Below are positions 39,117-42,328 of a DNA stretch of 64,000 nt, one piece after another. The stretch comes from an uncultured Actinomycetota bacterium (GTDB lineage: Bacteria > Actinomycetota > Actinomycetes > DATJPE01): contig CAWFYH010000005.1 of assembly GCA_963819985.1 (NCBI GenBank), positions 531,710 to 595,709 of the forward strand, in the 5' to 3' direction. How positions within the stretch are numbered: the first letter of the stretch is position 1; each line of letters starts with the position of its first letter. The notes below the pieces were generated by a model. The model was not told where the DNA came from. It ran no database searches and saw nothing but the letters and a program-made list of their open reading frames with translations. The translations under genes were made by a program, and so were the position numbers.

Positions 39117-39136
39117 GTCCCCTGCGTGAGTGCGGC

Positions 39137-39550
39137 TCAGCCGCATCTCACGCAGTGCGCAGCCTGCGGCCTTAGCTCCAGTCGTCCTGCAGGGATCGGA
39201 TCGAGGCAGGTGACGCACCAGCCGTACGAGCCATCGTCAAGCCGCTGAAGAGCTGCCTTCACCTCAGCCGCCGTCTGCTTGGCCGCCTCGAGGCGGTGCA
39301 TGGCAGCGAGGTAGGACGTCTCGGTGCTCGGCTCACGAACCAGGACTGGGCGCAGACTGTCCATCTCGGCGCGCAACTCACCGGTGAGCCCCATGGTGTC
39401 GCCAAGCAGTCGGTTCAGCTGTTCGCGGATGGCCTCCTTGTCGATCGAGACGGCCGTCGGAGCGTCCGGAGGAAGCTCCGGCTCCACCGACCAAGGGTTT
39501 CGGCTGGGGCGGCTGATCGAGCGGGTTGTTGCCTGGTCGACGGTTGACAT
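39137..39550 (-). CDS. TraR/DksA C4-type zinc finger protein
   Basis: ALQRLDDGSYGWCVTC..IPAGRLELRP..CVRC; AGGAG SD. Confidence 0.88.
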   Translation of the reverse strand: MSTVDQATTRSISRPSRNPWSVEPELPPDAPTAVSIDKEAIREQLNRLLGDTMGLTGELRAEMDSLRPVLVREPSTETSYLAAMHRLEAAKQTAAEVKAALQRLDDGSYGWCVTCLDPIPAGRLELRPQAAHCVRCG

Positions 39551-39609
39551 GAGCTTCTCCTACGGTCGATGGATGTGTGGGATGAGATGACGTTCGGTCG
39601 GACATCAGG

Positions 39610-39646
39610 AAAAAGAAAAAGCCCCAGCATCACGGGGATGCTGGGA
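39610..39646 (-). terminator. Intrinsic terminator (attenuator) in the dksA-like leader
   Basis: Minus strand CCCAGCATC-cccgt-GATGCTGGG then gcTTTTTCTTTTT. Confidence 0.85.
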
Positions 39647-39668
39647 CGCAGAAGGCGTCAAACCAGCA

Positions 39669-39764
39669 TCACGGCGGCATGCGCCCGGGGACCACGACCC
39701 CAGCGGTCATCGGACAGCGCGCAGACGCGACCGCCGATCGGACCGAACCACACAGGGTGAACAT
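39669..39764 (-). CDS. Putative leaderless leader peptide (31 aa, ends RMPP)
   Basis: TACCAT 6 nt before ATG 39764; MFTLCGSVRSAVASARCPMTAGVVVPGRMPP*; stop overlaps the antiterminator copy. Confidence 0.65.
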   Translation of the reverse strand: MFTLCGSVRSAVASARCPMTAGVVVPGRMPP

Positions 39765-39854
39765 GGCTTCATGGTAGGCCAGATGCAGCCGGGCCGCGTC
39801 GTCGTTTTGGGACGCACGCTGTTCCACTCCGAGCACCGAAGCTGCCCGACCGAA

Positions 39855-39878
39855 GAAAGTTAGGTCACCCTCACTTGG
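39855..39878 (+). promoter_or_regulatory. IdeR/DtxR-like iron box upstream of feoA
   Basis: GAAAGTTAGGTCACCCTCACTTGG holds two overlapping ~12-13/19 matches to TTAGGTTAGGCTAACCTAA. Confidence 0.6.
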
Positions 39879-39885
39879 CTCGCCT

Positions 39886-40155
39886 ATGCTGGTGCGGTGC
39901 TCGACCCTCAGACTCTGGCCGCAGTACCCGCGGGCGGGCGGGCGGGCAACGCTTGGCATACCCGACCTCGAGCCGGCCAGAGTGCGACGGTTGGCCGAGC
40001 TCGGGTTGCGGGCAGGAGCGGACGTCACCGTGGTGGCGCGCACAGCCGGTGGTGGAAGAGTCGTTGCCCTGGCCGATGACCGCATCGCGCTCGACCGGGA
40101 CACGGTGCGGTGCCTTCGCCTGGAAGACCCGTCCTCGCCCGAGGGTGCCGGATGA
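39886..40155 (+). CDS. feoA: Ferrous iron transport protein A
   Basis: RRLAELGLRAGADV, RIALDR; coupled to feoB by ATGA. Confidence 0.75.
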   Translation: MLVRCSTLRLWPQYPRAGGRATLGIPDLEPARVRRLAELGLRAGADVTVVARTAGGGRVVALADDRIALDRDTVRCLRLEDPSSPEGAG

Positions 40156-40940
40156 CCGAGTCCCCTCCGCCCAGTCGAGAATCCAGTACGGCTGGCGCCA
40201 CGCCTGTCATGTCAGTTCCTTCCTGCCACTCAGGGGGTGGTGGACGCACCGCGACCGCCGGTGTGCCAGTGGTGGCGCTAGCCGGCGCTCCCAACGTCGG
40301 AAAATCCACCCTCTTCAACGGACTGTGCGGCGCTCGGCGCGACGTCGGGAACTGGCCTGGCACAACAGTTGAGGTAGGTCGCGGCGCCTGGCACACCGGC
40401 CAGGCCGGTGAGGCGTCCGAAGTCGACCTGGTCGACCTGCCTGGTGCCTACAGCCTCGACCCGATGTCGCCGGACGAAGCGCTTACCCGAGCCCTGCTCG
40501 TGGAGCCCCCCATCGACGAGCGACCCGACCTCGTTGTCGCCATTGCGTCTGCTGTCCACCTGTCTCGGAGCCTCTACCTCGTGGCTCAGCTTCGCGAGCT
40601 GCCCCAACGCGTCGTCGTGGCTCTGACGATGAACGACGTCGCTGAGCGACGCGGGGTGACGGTGGACACAGCCGCACTCGCGGCCGGCCCCGGGGTCCCA
40701 GTCGTGGTCATCGACCCGCGCAAACGGTCTGGGGGCGAACTGCTGGCGGCACAGGTGGCCGCGGTTTTGTCCGAGCCGCCACCCGCCGCACGGCCAACAC
40801 CTGCCGAGGCTGACGACCTCGACCTTGCCGATGCGCGGTTTGCGTGGGTCACCGAGGCGGTCGAGGGAGCGACCACCCGCGACGCGGAGCGTCGCCGTAC
40901 CTTGTCGGACCGGGGCCGGTCCTCGTCGCGCTGTCGTTGA
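40152..40940 (+). pseudogene. feoB: Truncated FeoB (GTPase domain only)
   Basis: GAPNVGKSTLFN, VGNWPGTTVE, DLPGAYSL; ends after RRTLSDR before any TM domain. Confidence 0.85.
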
Positions 40941-40987: not shown

Positions 40988-42328
40988 CTATCTCCTAGAA
41001 GGTCGTTCGGCCAGCGAACCCATCGGATCCCAGGCCGGTAGAACGATCGGCTCGTCGTCCAGCGCCGCAACCAGTTCGGCGGGCAACCGGTCCTTGCGTG
41101 CGGCCACTTCAAAAACGTACTCATCGAACCACGAGTCGTTCATCGTGTAGAAACCTTTGACGCCGTTGTCGTCGCCCCAGCTGTTCTCTACCCGCCAACG
41201 GCGAGGGGACTCGCCGTCGAGGTCGACACCGGTGAACAGCATCGCGTGGGTCATCTGCGTCTCGTGGTAGTCGAGGCGAGCGGCCTTGTCGAGGCCGAAC
41301 GTGGCATCGTAGACCGAGCCGTAGTCGAACAGGTTCGCGTCCCAGATTCCCAGGTCGCGGCGCATCTGCGGGCTGACGTCACACCCGAACCAAACGGGCT
41401 CCCCCTCGGCGATGGCGCCGATGACGGCCGTCTTCAGGACGCCTGCATCGACATTGAGATACGTCACTCGCTCGCCGCCGACGATGTTGCCCAGGAAGTC
41501 GACGGTGAACGTACGGCCCCGTGGGCTGGACGGCCGCGGGTCGTCCACCAGGCAGACGTAGTCGTCAAGGTCGATGGTGACGTACTTGGCGGCGAACTCG
41601 CGCGGTGTCAGCTCGCCATCGCGATGAAACTGCTTGTCCTTGTCGGTCCACTGCCAGACAAAGCTCTCGGGTGGCGTCCCCAGGTGGATGGACAGGATGC
41701 GGTAGCACGTGGCCAGCACGTCGCTCCTGATGGCGGCCTCAGCTGCCGTGTCGCTCGCCTCGCGCAGCGCTTTCGCGCCCTGCCGAAGGATGGAGCACAG
41801 CGCAGAGTTCATCTGGTGCGTCGACGACGACGACTCGGTCTCCGGCATGGCGTTCTTGGGCACGAGCCCGTGCTTGCGCACCAACGCGACGAACATGTTC
41901 CACTGACCGCCGTCGCCCATGACTTCGTCATGCAAGAAGGCCACCGTCCGGTCGTCTGCTTCTCGATCCTTGGTGGCGAGGATCGCCTCCAAGTAGTAGT
42001 TGACGCGCTCCAACTTGTCGAAGAAGAGCACGTGGTTCTGCGAGAACTCGAACTCGGTGGTGTTGAGCTTCTTCATGGCGCCGGCGCGCAGCAGGTTGAG
42101 TCCGGCGAACATCCAGCAGCGGCCGCTCTTCTTCTGGTTCGTGACCGCCCAGTCATCGAGCTGGTGGGACATCGTGTGATCGACTCGGGTGACGATCTCG
42201 CGGTCGAGCGCGATGTCCTCCACGCTTGTCTGGGTGACGGCGTTCTGCACGATCCGATAGGTCGGGTTGCTCGCAAACTCTTTGCGGAGCGCTTCGAGGT
42301 CCGCGCTGGTGATGGTCTGCTCGGGCAT
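40988..42328 (-). CDS. pepC: C1B cysteine aminopeptidase (PepC/bleomycin hydrolase)
   Basis: NQKKSGRCWMFA, MTHAM, VENSWG, AWDPMGSLA. Confidence 0.93.
   Translation of the reverse strand: MPEQTITSADLEALRKEFASNPTYRIVQNAVTQTSVEDIALDREIVTRVDHTMSHQLDDWAVTNQKKSGRCWMFAGLNLLRAGAMKKLNTTEFEFSQNHVLFFDKLERVNYYLEAILATKDREADDRTVAFLHDEVMGDGGQWNMFVALVRKHGLVPKNAMPETESSSSTHQMNSALCSILRQGAKALREASDTAAEAAIRSDVLATCYRILSIHLGTPPESFVWQWTDKDKQFHRDGELTPREFAAKYVTIDLDDYVCLVDDPRPSSPRGRTFTVDFLGNIVGGERVTYLNVDAGVLKTAVIGAIAEGEPVWFGCDVSPQMRRDLGIWDANLFDYGSVYDATFGLDKAARLDYHETQMTHAMLFTGVDLDGESPRRWRVENSWGDDNGVKGFYTMNDSWFDEYVFEVAARKDRLPAELVAALDDEPIVLPAWDPMGSLAERPSRR

What the first reader, a model, noticed from the sequence alone, without database searches (positions are those of the whole stretch)
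39137..39776. Leader-peptide attenuator (leaderless uORF ending RMPP-stop) controlling a DksA/TraR zinc-finger gene
On the minus strand: a -10 TACCAT (39776-39771), ATG 6 nt later, a 31-codon uORF ending G-R-M-P-P-stop, a 9-bp hairpin with an 11-nt T-rich tail, then the SD and the dksA-like gene. The 12-mer CCGTGATGCTGG occurs twice exactly: over the last Pro and stop codon (39674-39663) and in the terminator loop and 3' arm (39635-39624). Both copies compete for the 5' arm CCAGCATC, giving mutually exclusive terminator and antiterminator folds. A ribosome at PP-stop would mask the antiterminator (off); a ribosome stalled earlier or absent would allow read-through (on). RMPP resembles RAPP/RGPP arrest motifs, and the logic parallels whiB7/wblC attenuation. 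Actinobacterial DksA-like proteins are poorly understood, so this may be an undescribed translation-stress switch. The signal sensed is unknown.
Basis: partly seen in the sequence, partly recalled or inferred. Interest (0 to 1): 0.8.

Follow-up and report, generated by a model that had tools for sequence, protein, structure and literature searches.

The report
Proline-stop leader peptide attenuator before dksA-like gene
A short upstream reading frame ending in Pro-Pro-stop overlaps an RNA switch (terminator versus antiterminator) ahead of a DksA-like gene in a soil actinobacterium, so the gene is probably turned on when ribosomes falter, a known kind of control seen here in a new setting.

Summary
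All of these are real: TACCAT, then 6 nt, then ATG; a 31-codon uORF ending GRMPP-TGA; an exact 12-mer repeat (0.04 expected by chance); a 9-11 bp terminator with a U-tract; and a competing 13-bp antiterminator whose 5' arm starts inside the stop codon.

The only close orthologue, from a sister species, keeps the whole design although neutral sites are 41-54% diverged. Its uORF has the same length. The last 14 codons differ only by 3 synonymous changes. All stems are kept, and changes fall in loops or a bulge or preserve a pair.

A third, distant subfamily member in another family has unrelated leader sequence. It still has a uORF ending RRVPPP-stop, 20 nt before a terminator, with a duplicated arm.

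No PP-stop uORF was found upstream of about 114 other DksA-like genes.

Best reading (about 0.6): a ribosome-mediated transcription attenuator with whiB7-like logic. A ribosome parked at PP-stop gives termination; slow, stalled or absent ribosomes give read-through.

RMPP is not a validated RAPP-type arrest motif. No expression data exist, and the signal sensed is unknown. This is a new variant of a known kind.

The parts
39771..39776 (-). -10-like hexamer TACCAT (TANNNT), 6 nt upstream of the uORF ATG; the putative promoter of a leaderless transcript
   Evidence: Read. G004 has TATCAT at the same spacing. On the minus strand of 39900-39551 there are only two TANNNT hexamers, and none lies downstream of the terminator. 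Genome-wide, TANNNT-N6/N7-[AG]TG is enriched: 385 and 300 occurrences against about 100 at other spacings.
39669..39764 (-). 31-codon uORF MFTLCGSVRSAVASARCPMTAGVVVPGRMPP plus TGA stop (39671-39669)
   Evidence: G004 has a uORF of the same length, MYTTCSSVESPVASVGRPMTAGVVVPGRMPP. pN/pS is 0.50 in this frame against 1.31 and 1.68 in the other two frames.
39672..39713 (-). Invariant C-terminal 14 codons PMTAGVVVPGRMPP; candidate tunnel-interacting or pause segment ending Pro-Pro
   Evidence: With the stop codon (45 nt), 3 nt differ from G004, all synonymous third positions, and there are 0 non-synonymous changes. Four-fold sites in flanking genes are 41-54% diverged.
39637..39670 (-). Antiterminator hairpin: 5' arm GATGCTGG (39670-39663, beginning with the GA of the stop codon), TTT bulge, inner hairpin GACGC-CTTCT-GCGTC (39659-39645), 3' arm CCAGCATC (39644-39637)
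   Evidence: I2. Folds to -18.8 kcal/mol. It is the minimum-energy fold of every transcript prefix ending between 39637 and 39624. All 13 pairs are invariant in G004; the only change is in the bulge.
39610..39647 (-). Intrinsic terminator: stem GTCCCAGCATC / GATGCTGGGGC (39647-39621), loop CCCGT, U-tract TTTTTCTTTTT (39620-39610)
   Evidence: (-20.3 kcal/mol). In G004 the stem is kept, with one G.U to A-U change at the base and 3 of 5 loop bases changed. It is one of only 52 strict terminators in the 3.38-Mb genome.
39562..39609 (-). Unconserved spacer between the terminator and the ribosome-binding site; contains no TANNNT hexamer
   Evidence: There is a 20-nt indel and little identity to G004. 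No -10-like hexamer occurs here in either species.
39556..39561 (-). Shine-Dalgarno AGGAGA, 5 nt before the dksA-like ATG
   Evidence: conserved in G004.
39137..39550 (-). Regulated gene: 137-aa DksA/TraR-family protein (disordered N-terminus, coiled-coil hairpin, C4 zinc finger)
   Evidence: Pfam zf-dskA_traR, E = 5.2e-8. Below NCBIfam DksA cut-offs. AF2 model has mean pLDDT 80.2 with helices 38-72 and 74-106. Foldseek best hits are DksA2 4ijj (TM 0.64/0.67) and E. coli DksA in RNA polymerase complexes.

Best explanation
The 215-nt region upstream of the dksA-like gene is a ribosome-mediated transcription attenuator.

Transcription probably starts at the A of the uORF ATG, giving a leaderless mRNA; this start is inferred. 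A ribosome translates the 31-codon uORF and dwells at its end. The likely causes are slow Pro-Pro peptide-bond formation and, above all, slow release at Pro-Pro-UGA, possibly helped by the conserved 14-residue C-terminus.

With the last Pro codon in the P site, the ribosome covers the stop codon and the next 10-13 nt or so. That is the whole 5' arm of the antiterminator (39670-39663). The arm CCAGCAUC is then free to pair with the downstream GAUGCUGG. The terminator forms, RNA polymerase releases at the U-tract, and the gene stays OFF.

If ribosomes are slow, are stalled before about codon 27, or never load, the antiterminator forms first, because it is transcribed first and is about as stable. 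It sequesters the terminator's 5' arm, and polymerase reads through into the dksA-like gene: ON.

The switch therefore reports translation status, which could mean starvation, ribosome-targeting compounds or ribosome shortage.

Shown: the sequence elements, their energies, their conservation, and the geometry. Inferred: the start site, translation of the uORF, the pause, the direction of regulation, and the physiological signal.
For: 1. All elements are present and beyond chance.

2. The sister species G004 (protein 75% identical) keeps the design while four-fold sites of flanking genes are 41-54% diverged.
- The -10 to ATG segment differs at 2 of 21 nt.
- uORF codons 18-31 plus stop differ at 3 of 45 nt, all synonymous.
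- The antiterminator/terminator segment differs at 5 of 48 nt: 1 in the bulge, 3 in the terminator loop, and 1 G.U to A-U change.
- The spacer after the terminator is unconserved, with a 20-nt indel.

3. There is a coding signature only in the uORF frame: pN/pS is 0.50 against 1.31 and 1.68. A GGGG/CCCC hairpin inside the uORF is not kept in G004, so peptide constraint rather than RNA constraint explains the invariant C-terminus.

4. No TANNNT hexamer lies between the terminator and the gene in either species, so the gene depends on read-through.

5. Transcript-prefix folding shows the antiterminator as the minimum-energy fold until the terminator's 3' arm is complete, in both the window and G004.

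6. TANNNT-N6-ATG is this genome's own leaderless signature, with 385 occurrences at gap 6 against about 100 background.

7. A genome-wide screen found 52 strict terminators. Only 2 have an upstream complement of 8 nt or more to the 5' arm. One is this locus. The other is a classical aromatic leader peptide (...SWFYAYPPG...) ahead of a DAHP synthase gene, which serves as a positive control that the organism uses such attenuators.

8. A distant subfamily member, G248 (another family; 46% identity in alignment A2), has non-homologous leader sequence (no significant DNA match to the window leader at E <= 1). It still carries:
- a 37-codon uORF (GAGG, 7 nt, GTG) ending RRVPPP-TAG;
- a -25.4 kcal/mol hairpin with a U-rich tail starting 20 nt after the stop;
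- AGUCGGGGG present twice, once in the uORF and once as the terminator's 3' arm;
- an antiterminator that is the minimum-energy fold of most transcript prefixes (7 of 8 ending between 1908 and 1884).

9. PP-stop uORFs occur upstream of 3 of 97 DksA-like loci, and those 3 are exactly the subfamily members. The counts are 0 of 97 antisense, and 0 of 20 sense and 1 of 20 antisense in further actinobacterial loci. The genome background is 0.018 per 250 nt.

10. Published precedent. A C-terminal Pro-Pro interferes with termination in all contexts tested in E. coli (PMC3834316, passages). In whiB7, efficient uORF translation gives the terminator and impaired translation gives the antiterminator (bioRxiv 10.1101/2023.06.02.543512, passages).
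Against: - There is no transcript, start-site, Term-seq or ribosome-profiling evidence; no RNA run was listed.
- Comparative support rests on three loci from two independent lineages. The subfamily is rare: 3 genomes, counting G000, in the samples searched.
- In the N-terminal half of the uORF, substitutions look nearly neutral (5.8 synonymous and 11.2 non-synonymous). A shorter uORF starting at the conserved internal ATG (codon 19) is not excluded.
- In G248 the uORF would be SD-led rather than leaderless, and a TACCCT-N6-ATG there opens a different frame that runs through the terminator. So that locus supports the model only in outline.
- The full-length minimum-energy fold of the window leader is not unusually stable (z = -1.11).
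- RMPP is not a validated arrest motif.
- The pause at PP-stop has been shown in E. coli, not in actinobacteria.
Confidence: 0.6

Rival explanations
1. The architecture is the same, but the sensed signal is specifically shortage of an amino acid, as in a classical trp/ilv-type attenuator. Ribosomes would stall at the conserved Val-Val-Val run (codons 23-25) or at other codons when charged tRNA is scarce. That would leave the antiterminator arm free and induce the gene.
For: VVV is invariant in G000 and G004, and Val is the commonest residue in the uORF. A ribosome with codon 25 in the P site would reach only to about 39677, upstream of the arm; this follows from the geometry and a recalled ribosome footprint. 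The same genome has a classical aromatic leader. The whiB7 uORF responds to amino-acid deprivation.
Against: Three Val codons make a weak regulatory run. G248's uORF has only VV and a quite different composition. The downstream gene is not a biosynthetic gene. This reading does not explain why the final GRMPP is invariant.
Confidence: 0.12
2. The uORF and terminator form an independent small gene, either a 31-aa peptide or a roughly 155-nt sRNA or dual-function RNA, with its own terminator. The dksA-like gene is then expressed only by constitutive leaky read-through, and the alternative hairpin has no regulatory role.
For: The invariant peptide C-terminus could reflect a function of the free peptide. 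Leaderless small ORFs are frequent in this genome: 97 candidates of 8-59 codons.
Against: The antiterminator is perfectly conserved and begins inside the stop codon. An analogous duplicated arm occurs in non-homologous sequence in G248. The design co-occurs only with this DksA-like subfamily. There is no promoter-like hexamer for the downstream gene.
Confidence: 0.12
3. The terminator/antiterminator choice is set without translation, by an RNA-binding protein, a ligand (riboswitch) or RNA polymerase pausing alone. The open frame is incidental in a G+C-rich genome.
For: Long open frames are common here; the same frame is open for 144 codons in the window. No translation data exist.
Against: There is no Rfam match (the only hit was NsiR1, E = 7.9, on the terminator). 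The 5' half of the leader is poorly conserved, which is unlike an aptamer. Changes in the conserved half are all synonymous third positions, and only this frame shows pN/pS below 1. The frame length, ATG and stop are conserved in G004. A PP-stop recurs in G248.
Confidence: 0.08
4. The arrangement is a chance product of G+C-rich sequence next to an ordinary terminator, left from the upstream pepC gene in the ancestral arrangement, and has no function.
For: In G004 the pepC gene ends about 70 nt upstream on the same strand, so the hairpin could terminate pepC transcripts.
Against: In the window, pepC is separated from the leader by divergent feoA/feoB' genes, yet the leader is intact. The region is far more conserved than neutral sites. 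Chance expectations are low.
Confidence: 0.05

Closest known systems
whiB7 / wblC 5' leader of actinobacteria (uORF-dependent transcription attenuation)
   Same: The logic is the same. Efficient uORF translation gives a rho-independent terminator; impaired translation gives an antiterminator and read-through. The phylum and the role as a translation-stress sensor also match (bioRxiv 10.1101/2023.06.02.543512, passages).
   Different: There is no sequence or Rfam relationship. The downstream gene is a DksA/TraR-family protein, not a WhiB regulator. The uORF is probably leaderless and ends in Pro-Pro-stop placed on the antiterminator arm. No positive-feedback promoter is evident.
Leaderless polycysteine short ORFs acting as attenuators in mycobacteria (bioRxiv 10.1101/834739; only the search listing and start of the abstract were seen)
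   Same: A leaderless short ORF as the first cistron controls the downstream gene according to ribosome progress.
   Different: Those ORFs sense cysteine through Cys codon runs. Here there is no codon run except VVV, and the defining feature is a PP-stop overlapping an antiterminator next to an intrinsic terminator.
RAPP/RGPP arrest peptides (ApdA, ApdP, ApcA; seven S. lividans uORF products)
   Same: R-x-P-P lies at the C-terminal end of a small upstream ORF in an actinobacterium, and the conserved segment is C-terminal with a variable N-terminus. PMC12992588 reports such motifs near the C-termini of small proteins upstream of genes of diverse function (passages and section 7).
   Different: Position 2 is Met (Val in G248), not Ala or Gly. 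Met is not among the permissive substitutions listed. Known members are much longer, mostly secreted or membrane proteins whose arrest is relieved by pulling force and controls downstream translation. Here the peptide is 31 aa, and the read-out would be transcription termination.
Termination pausing at C-terminal Pro-Pro (E. coli YbeL-PP) and TnaC Pro24-UGA
   Same: A Pro-Pro (or Pro) peptidyl-tRNA at a stop codon hinders release and parks the ribosome on the stop codon (PMC3834316, passages; PMC8450073, listing only). The stop here is UGA, as in tnaC.
   Different: YbeL-PP is an engineered model, not a regulator. TnaC stalling blocks Rho and turns genes on, whereas here the parked ribosome would favour an intrinsic terminator and turn the gene off.
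Classical amino-acid leader-peptide attenuators (trp, ilv; the aro leader found in this same genome)
   Same: They share a leader peptide, terminator and antiterminator, with ribosome position deciding the fold. An example with a WFYAY leader sits before a DAHP synthase gene in this genome.
   Different: There is no conserved 1:2 anti-antiterminator pairing (tested), so no translation should give ON rather than OFF. There is no clear regulatory codon run, and the target is non-biosynthetic.

Membership tests
Ribosome-mediated (leader-peptide) transcription attenuator | Intrinsic terminator between the leader ORF and the regulated gene | tested here: met
   An 11-pair stem with TTTTTCTTTTT lies at 39647-39610 and is conserved in G004.
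Ribosome-mediated (leader-peptide) transcription attenuator | Mutually exclusive antiterminator that shares a strand with the terminator | tested here: met
   I2. Energies are -18.8 against -20.3 kcal/mol. The antiterminator is the minimum-energy fold of transcript prefixes. All 13 pairs are invariant in G004.
Ribosome-mediated (leader-peptide) transcription attenuator | Leader ORF placed so that ribosome position selects the fold | tested here: met
   The stop codon TGA (39671-39669) overlaps the first two bases of the antiterminator's 5' arm (39670-39663). The arrangement is identical in G004. The footprint size is recalled knowledge.
Ribosome-mediated (leader-peptide) transcription attenuator | Leader ORF is actually translated and transcription starts upstream of it | tested here: inconclusive
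   The evidence is a coding-type substitution pattern, a conserved -10 at the genome's leaderless spacing, and no -10 downstream of the terminator. There are no RNA or ribosome data.
RAPP-type ribosome arrest peptides | C-terminal core R-[A/G]-P-P, with Arg irreplaceable and Ala replaceable fully only by Gly | tested here: not met
   The core here is R-M-P-P (R-V-P-P-P in G248). PMC12992588, section 7, lists G as fully permissive and S, D, P (and V, E in ApdP) as partly permissive. Met is not listed.
RAPP-type ribosome arrest peptides | Demonstrated elongation arrest with Pro-tRNA in the A site | not testable with these tools
   This needs toeprinting or an in vitro translation assay.
whiB7/wblC leader family | Homologous leader upstream of a WhiB-family gene | tested here: not met
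   The downstream gene is DksA/TraR-like, and there is no Rfam match. The resemblance is in logic only.
DksA / TraR family of RNA polymerase secondary-channel factors (the regulated gene) | C4 zinc finger (CxxC-x17-CxxC) | tested here: met
   Pfam PF01258, E = 5.2e-8, residues 107-136. C112, C115, C133 and C136 are invariant in the subfamily.
DksA / TraR family of RNA polymerase secondary-channel factors (the regulated gene) | Antiparallel coiled-coil hairpin preceding the finger | tested here: met
   The AF2 model has helices 38-72 and 74-106 with pLDDT around 90. Foldseek gives DksA2 4ijj at TM 0.64/0.67 and E. coli DksA-RNA polymerase entries.
DksA / TraR family of RNA polymerase secondary-channel factors (the regulated gene) | Acidic DxxDxA tip motif of canonical DksA (motif recalled from memory) and equivalog-level similarity | tested here: not met
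   The tip of the modelled hairpin is R72-E73-P74. The NCBIfam DksA score is 42.3 bits against a cut-off of 115.5. The protein is therefore a family member by fold and finger, not a DksA equivalog.
Classical amino-acid attenuator (trp/ilv type) | Run of codons for the regulating amino acid, and a conserved anti-antiterminator (1:2) pairing | tested here: inconclusive
   There is only a conserved VVV run. The CGGCGG/CCGCCG pairing seen in the window's full-length fold is not kept in G004.

The most novel reading that the evidence does not exclude
The invariant C-terminus PMTAGVVVPGRMPP, together with G248's ...RRVPPP, may define a new R-hydrophobic-P-P(-P)-stop class of very short actinobacterial arrest peptides. 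The nascent chain itself would programme a long-lived and possibly tunable arrest at the uORF end, and that arrest would be read out as intrinsic termination. Expression of a DksA-like RNA polymerase factor would then be wired directly to ribosome or release-factor status.
Probability: 0.25. Interest if true: 0.75.

Novelty: new variant of a known kind. Interest (0 to 1): 0.6.

Why it matters
Actinobacteria lack canonical DksA, and the roles of their DksA/TraR-like zinc-finger proteins are largely unknown. If this leader works as proposed, one such protein is produced only when translation falters. That would tie a putative RNA polymerase secondary-channel factor to ribosome status by a cis-acting switch, and it gives a concrete condition under which to look for the protein's function.

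The finding would also add a compact design to the known attenuators: a probably leaderless uORF, with a Pro-Pro-stop used as a parking signal placed exactly on an antiterminator arm. It extends the emerging picture that R-x-P-P-ended small uORFs regulate diverse genes in actinobacteria.

The switch is small, about 155 nt, and fully specified by sequence. It is directly testable with reporters.

Tried and rejected
Searches that found nothing useful:
- Rfam on 39400-40000 at E <= 10 gave only NsiR1 (E = 7.9) on the terminator hairpin. No known RNA family matches.
- Two genome-contig scans found no relative.
- The metagenome-contig scan used generic DksA peptides and returned only distant DksA-like loci. 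The contig of P0003 was not recovered.
- The search for homologous proteins found only 3 close proteins for the window protein and 12 for G248's protein, all on short contigs.
- tblastn against plasmids and phages gave no match at 1e-8.
- A DNA search with the leader in 401 genomes of the class gave only G000 and G004.
- Profile searches in the order of G000 (7 genomes) and in the family and order of G248 (the same 20 genomes) added no member.
- Repeating the class search centred on G248 returned no further member (2 of 400 matched: G248 and G004).
- The broader profile A2 over the phylum returned 20 general DksA-like loci without the leader.

Script caveats:
- The script stopped with an error after L149. 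re-examined all 20 loci, L133-L152. Two of these, from G009 and G056, repeat loci already in the first set.
- In one search my terminator script scored 107 of 109 loci, and 11 had some terminator-like hit. Apart from L001 and L002 these were weak, mostly A+T-rich hairpins. The script's U-tract rule would have missed imperfect tails such as G248's. I therefore rely on the PP-stop counts rather than on that scan.

Expression and population data:
- No RNA holder was listed.
- The four soil-metagenome DNA runs hold the same strain with no variant in the leader. One divergent contig stops inside the CDS.

Ideas considered and dropped:
- An anti-antiterminator (1:2) pairing of CGGCGG with CCGCCG is not conserved in G004.
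- A GGGG/CCCC hairpin in the uORF is also not conserved.
- The 144-aa in-frame ORF lies antisense to feoA, has no Pfam hit, and is closed in G004.
- Leaderless initiation in G248 at TACCCT-N6-ATG would use the wrong frame. An SD-led GTG start fits instead.
- A DtxR/IdeR-like box upstream of feoA rests on a consensus I recalled from memory, with a weak hand-counted match. It was not tested.
- Zinc control: nothing was seen and it was not tested.

Other points:
- Unpublished genomes (G012, G020, G029, G035, G037, G041, G048, G261, G302, G371) enter only as negatives in the tallies. L012, L014 and L017 are negatives. No positive claim rests on them.
- Supplementary files of PMC12992588, which hold the full mutagenesis values and lists of RAPP/RGPP uORFs, were not seen. 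They may bear on whether R-M-P-P has any arrest activity.
Full report
**1. What is in the sequence**

On the minus strand a 137-aa gene runs from 39550 to 39137. It has a DksA/TraR C4 zinc finger (Pfam E = 5.2e-8). Upstream of it, in order, lie:
- an AGGAGA ribosome-binding site at 39561-39556;
- a 48-nt spacer;
- a U-tract, TTTTTCTTTTT, at 39620-39610;
- a hairpin, GTCCCAGCATC-CCCGT-GATGCTGGGGC, at 39647-39621;
- a 31-codon ORF (39764-39672), MFTLCGSVRSAVASARCPMTAGVVVPGRMPP, with stop TGA at 39671-39669.

The ORF's ATG sits 6 nt downstream of TACCAT (39776-39771). The repeat finder returns the direct repeat, the 9-bp terminator inverted repeat, and the 8-bp alternative inverted repeat GATGCTGG/CCAGCATC.

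The alternative pairing is lengthened by an inner GACGC/GCGTC helix into a 13-bp antiterminator with a 3-nt bulge. Its energy is -18.8 kcal/mol, against -20.3 for the terminator. Its 5' arm begins with the GA of the stop codon.

Upstream on the other strand are feoA (39886-40155) and a 276-aa ORF that holds only the FeoB G-domain. The leader thus lies in a divergent intergenic region.

**2. The regulated gene**

The protein scores below the NCBIfam cut-offs for DksA equivalogs (42.3 against 115.5 bits). An AlphaFold2 model built on 10 sequences has mean pLDDT 80.2. It shows a disordered N-terminus, two long helices (38-72 and 74-106) forming a hairpin, and the zinc ribbon. Foldseek ranks P. 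aeruginosa DksA2 (4ijj, TM 0.64/0.67) and E. coli DksA in RNA polymerase complexes first.

The hairpin tip reads R72-E73-P74, not the acidic DxxDxA motif that I recall for canonical DksA. So the protein is a DksA/TraR-family member by fold and finger, and its function is unknown.

**3. Conservation in the sister species**

The gene is rare. Only three close proteins exist among 5.8 billion. Among 61 relatives, only one genome of the same genus, G004, has an orthologue, at 75% identity.

In G004 there is no feoA/feoB'. The upstream pepC-like peptidase gene ends about 70 nt before the leader. Homology between the two species begins abruptly at CTGGCCTA(C/T)CAT.

Against a neutral yardstick of 41-54% divergence at four-fold sites in the three flanking genes, the leader segments differ as follows:
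- -10 to ATG: 2 of 21 nt;
- uORF codons 2-17: 17 of 48 nt;
- codons 18-31 plus stop: 3 of 45 nt;
- antiterminator/terminator: 5 of 48 nt.

The spacer beyond the U-tract is unalignable, with a 20-nt indel.

The three changes in the last 14 codons are all synonymous third positions. The uORF has the same length and the same start and stop in both species. pN/pS is 0.50 in this frame against 1.31 and 1.68 in the other frames. The five changes in the RNA switch are one in the bulge, three in the terminator loop, and one G.U to A-U change at the stem base, so every pair of both helices is kept. A small GGGG/CCCC hairpin inside the window's uORF is not kept in G004. This argues that the invariant C-terminus is constrained as peptide rather than as RNA.

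**4. Promoter and leaderless start**

On the minus strand between 39900 and 39551 there are only two TANNNT hexamers, TAACTT at 39862 and TACCAT at 39776. G004 has only TATCAT, at the same distance from the ATG. Neither species has one between the terminator and the gene. The gene therefore seems to depend on read-through of the terminator.

In this genome TANNNT followed by 6 or 7 nt and then ATG or GTG is strongly over-represented. Across the whole genome there are 385 and 300 occurrences, against about 100 at other spacings. At candidate starts of long ORFs the counts are 230 and 172, against 10-40. This is the signature of abundant leaderless mRNAs, and the uORF has the modal spacing. Of 97 such candidate leaderless small ORFs (8-59 codons), only this one ends in Pro-Pro. 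The start site itself remains inferred.

**5. Is the design exceptional in its own genome?**

A strict scan of the 3.38-Mb genome finds only 52 hairpin-plus-U-tract terminators. Two have an upstream complement of 8 nt or more to the 5' arm within 90 nt, and only this locus also has an ORF stop at that arm.

The other hit turned out to be a textbook case. It is a 35-codon ORF ending ...QQQSWFYAYPPGLPRRAA, just before a terminator and a DAHP synthase gene (Pfam 1.1e-78). That is an aromatic amino-acid leader peptide. It acts as an internal positive control: the organism uses ribosome-dependent attenuation at intrinsic terminators, and the screen that finds the control also singles out the dksA-like leader.

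**6. An independent second lineage**

A profile of the three close proteins, run over 401 genomes of the class, found one further member, G248, in a different family (E = 1.2e-24). Its 108-aa protein is 46% identical to the window protein in alignment A2. Its leader gave no significant DNA match to the window leader at E <= 1, yet the design recurs:
- a 37-codon ORF (GAGG, 7 nt, GTG) ending RRVPPP-TAG;
- 20 nt later, a -25.4 kcal/mol hairpin followed by AUUUCGUCGUUUCU;
- the 9-mer AGUCGGGGG present both inside the uORF and as the terminator's 3' arm.

In folds of growing transcripts, the upstream copy pairs with the terminator's 5' arm, and the end of the uORF sits in the loop. This holds for most prefixes until the full hairpin and tail are made (7 of 8 prefixes ending between 1908 and 1884).

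The uORF stop lies 121, 101 and 114 nt before the gene start in the three genomes. A PP-stop ORF of 8 or more codons within 250 nt upstream occurs in 3 of 97 DksA-like loci, exactly these three, and in 0 of 97 on the antisense strand. In 20 further actinobacterial DksA-like loci found with a broader profile, the counts are 0 of 20 sense and 1 of 20 antisense in 430 nt. The background in G000 is 0.018 per 250 nt.

Caveats. G000 and G004 are not independent. G248's uORF looks SD-led rather than leaderless. A TACCCT-N6-ATG in G248 opens another frame that runs through the terminator. So G248 supports the theme, meaning a Pro-Pro(-Pro)-stop uORF coupled to a terminator/antiterminator ahead of this subfamily, but not every detail.

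**7. Mechanism**

This section is inference from geometry and published precedent. With the last Pro codon (39674-39672) in the P site and UGA in the A site, a ribosome shields roughly 13-16 nt downstream of the P-site codon; the footprint is recalled knowledge. That reaches 39662-39659 and covers the whole 5' arm of the antiterminator. The arm is largely covered even one codon earlier.

The terminator can then form, and the transcript ends at the U-tract, 59 nt past the stop codon. For this to work the ribosome must stay put while polymerase covers that distance. A C-terminal Pro-Pro is known to interfere with termination "in all genetic contexts tested" in E. coli (PMC3834316, passages). So Pro-Pro-UGA is a plausible parking signal.

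If the ribosome is absent, or is held at or before about codon 27, the antiterminator wins. It is made first and is the minimum-energy fold of every prefix ending between 39637 and 39624 (the same holds for G004). The gene is then transcribed. No conserved anti-antiterminator was found, so unlike trp, a lack of translation should give ON.

This is the logic described for whiB7 (bioRxiv 10.1101/2023.06.02.543512, passages).

**8. The RAPP question**

PMC12992588 (passages and section 7 read) reports the following:
- The Arg is irreplaceable.
- The Ala can be fully replaced only by Gly.
- Ser, Asp and Pro (and Val and Glu in ApdP) are partly permissive, and other substitutions abolish arrest. 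Met is not listed as permissive.
- RAPP arrest is EF-P-resistant.
- RAPP/RGPP motifs lie near the C-termini of small uORF products upstream of diverse genes in actinomycetes.

The register (R at -2, P in the P site, P in the A site) and the setting are alike, and G248's RVPP would be a partly permissive variant. But membership is not met for RMPP.

The full conservation of 14 C-terminal residues is more than a bare PP-stop needs. This keeps open a new, short arrest peptide as the most novel reading (probability about 0.25).

**9. Rivals**

- A valine or amino-acid-specific attenuator (the VVV run is conserved) is a sub-variant that I cannot exclude (0.12).
- An independent small peptide or sRNA gene with leaky read-through (0.12) does not explain the conserved antiterminator or its recurrence in G248.
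- A translation-independent switch (0.08) fits poorly with the synonymous-only changes and the unconserved 5' half.
- Chance, or a leftover pepC terminator (0.05), is contradicted by conservation far above the neutral level and by the intact leader after the feoA/feoB' insertion.

**10. Novelty and limits**

Searches of the paper library found no paper among those listed that links a DksA-family gene to a uORF or attenuator. One search combined DksA with uORF, leader peptide, transcription attenuation and leaderless; none of the 12 papers listed, of 69 that held at least three of the terms, contains "DksA" (the other 57 were not examined). One search combined DksA with Actinobacteria, zinc finger, Streptomyces and TraR.

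I rate this a new variant of a known kind: ribosome-mediated transcription attenuation, with a Pro-Pro-stop parking signal on the antiterminator arm, a probably leaderless uORF, and a DksA-like target.

The limits are these:
- There are three loci from two lineages.
- No expression data exist. No RNA run was listed, and the DNA runs showed no leader variants.
- The contigs of the other subfamily proteins could not be fetched.
- Negative tallies include some unpublished genomes, listed under Tried and rejected. No positive claim rests on them.

Noticed in passing
G000 contig C2, locus L153:1530-1710 (minus strand); outside the window: A classical aromatic amino-acid attenuator. A 35-codon ORF (L153 1706..1599) ends ...QQQSWFYAYPPGLPRRAA. 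It is followed by the terminator AGAGCCCCGG-GAGA-CCGGGGCTCT plus TTTCTTTG, just upstream of a DAHP synthase gene (Pfam DAHP_synth_1, 1.1e-78). An upstream 9-nt complement to the terminator's 5' arm is present.
   Followed up: partly
window 39886-40940 (+): A feoA gene and a 276-aa ORF holding only the FeoB N-terminal G-domain lie between pepC and the leader. There is no room for a membrane domain before pepC ends at 40988. G004 lacks both genes, and there pepC ends about 70 nt from the leader. This is either an insertion of a truncated feo unit in G000 or a deletion in G004.
   Followed up: partly
window 39930 (within the 5' part of feoA, in the GGGC repeat 39931-39946): Metagenome contigs of three runs (X1, X3, X4) lack 4 letters here relative to the window, inside a short GGGC tetranucleotide repeat. 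This would change the feoA reading frame. It may be slippage polymorphism or an assembly difference.
   Followed up: no
whole genome G000: There is a strong genome-wide excess of TANNNT placed 6-7 nt before ATG or GTG: 385 and 300 occurrences against about 100 at other spacings. This indicates several hundred leaderless genes. They include 97 candidate leaderless small ORFs of 8-59 codons.
   Followed up: partly
L131:2095-2112 (minus strand), G248: A perfect 18-bp palindrome, ATCACCACATGTGGTGAT, lies about 50 nt upstream of the G248 uORF. It is a possible operator for a dimeric regulator of that leader's promoter.
   Followed up: no
window 39860-39878 (+): TTAGGTCACCCTCACTTGG lies immediately upstream of the feoA ATG. 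It loosely resembles the DtxR/IdeR iron box as I recall it: about 12 of 19 positions by hand, with the consensus taken from memory. It overlaps the only other TANNNT on the minus strand (TAACTT, 39862).
   Followed up: no
window 39136-39453, run X3 contig: A contig about 85% identical (49 differences and 2 indels over 318 nt) covers the dksA-like CDS in one soil metagenome run. A further related strain or species therefore carries this rare gene. The contig ends before the leader.
   Followed up: no
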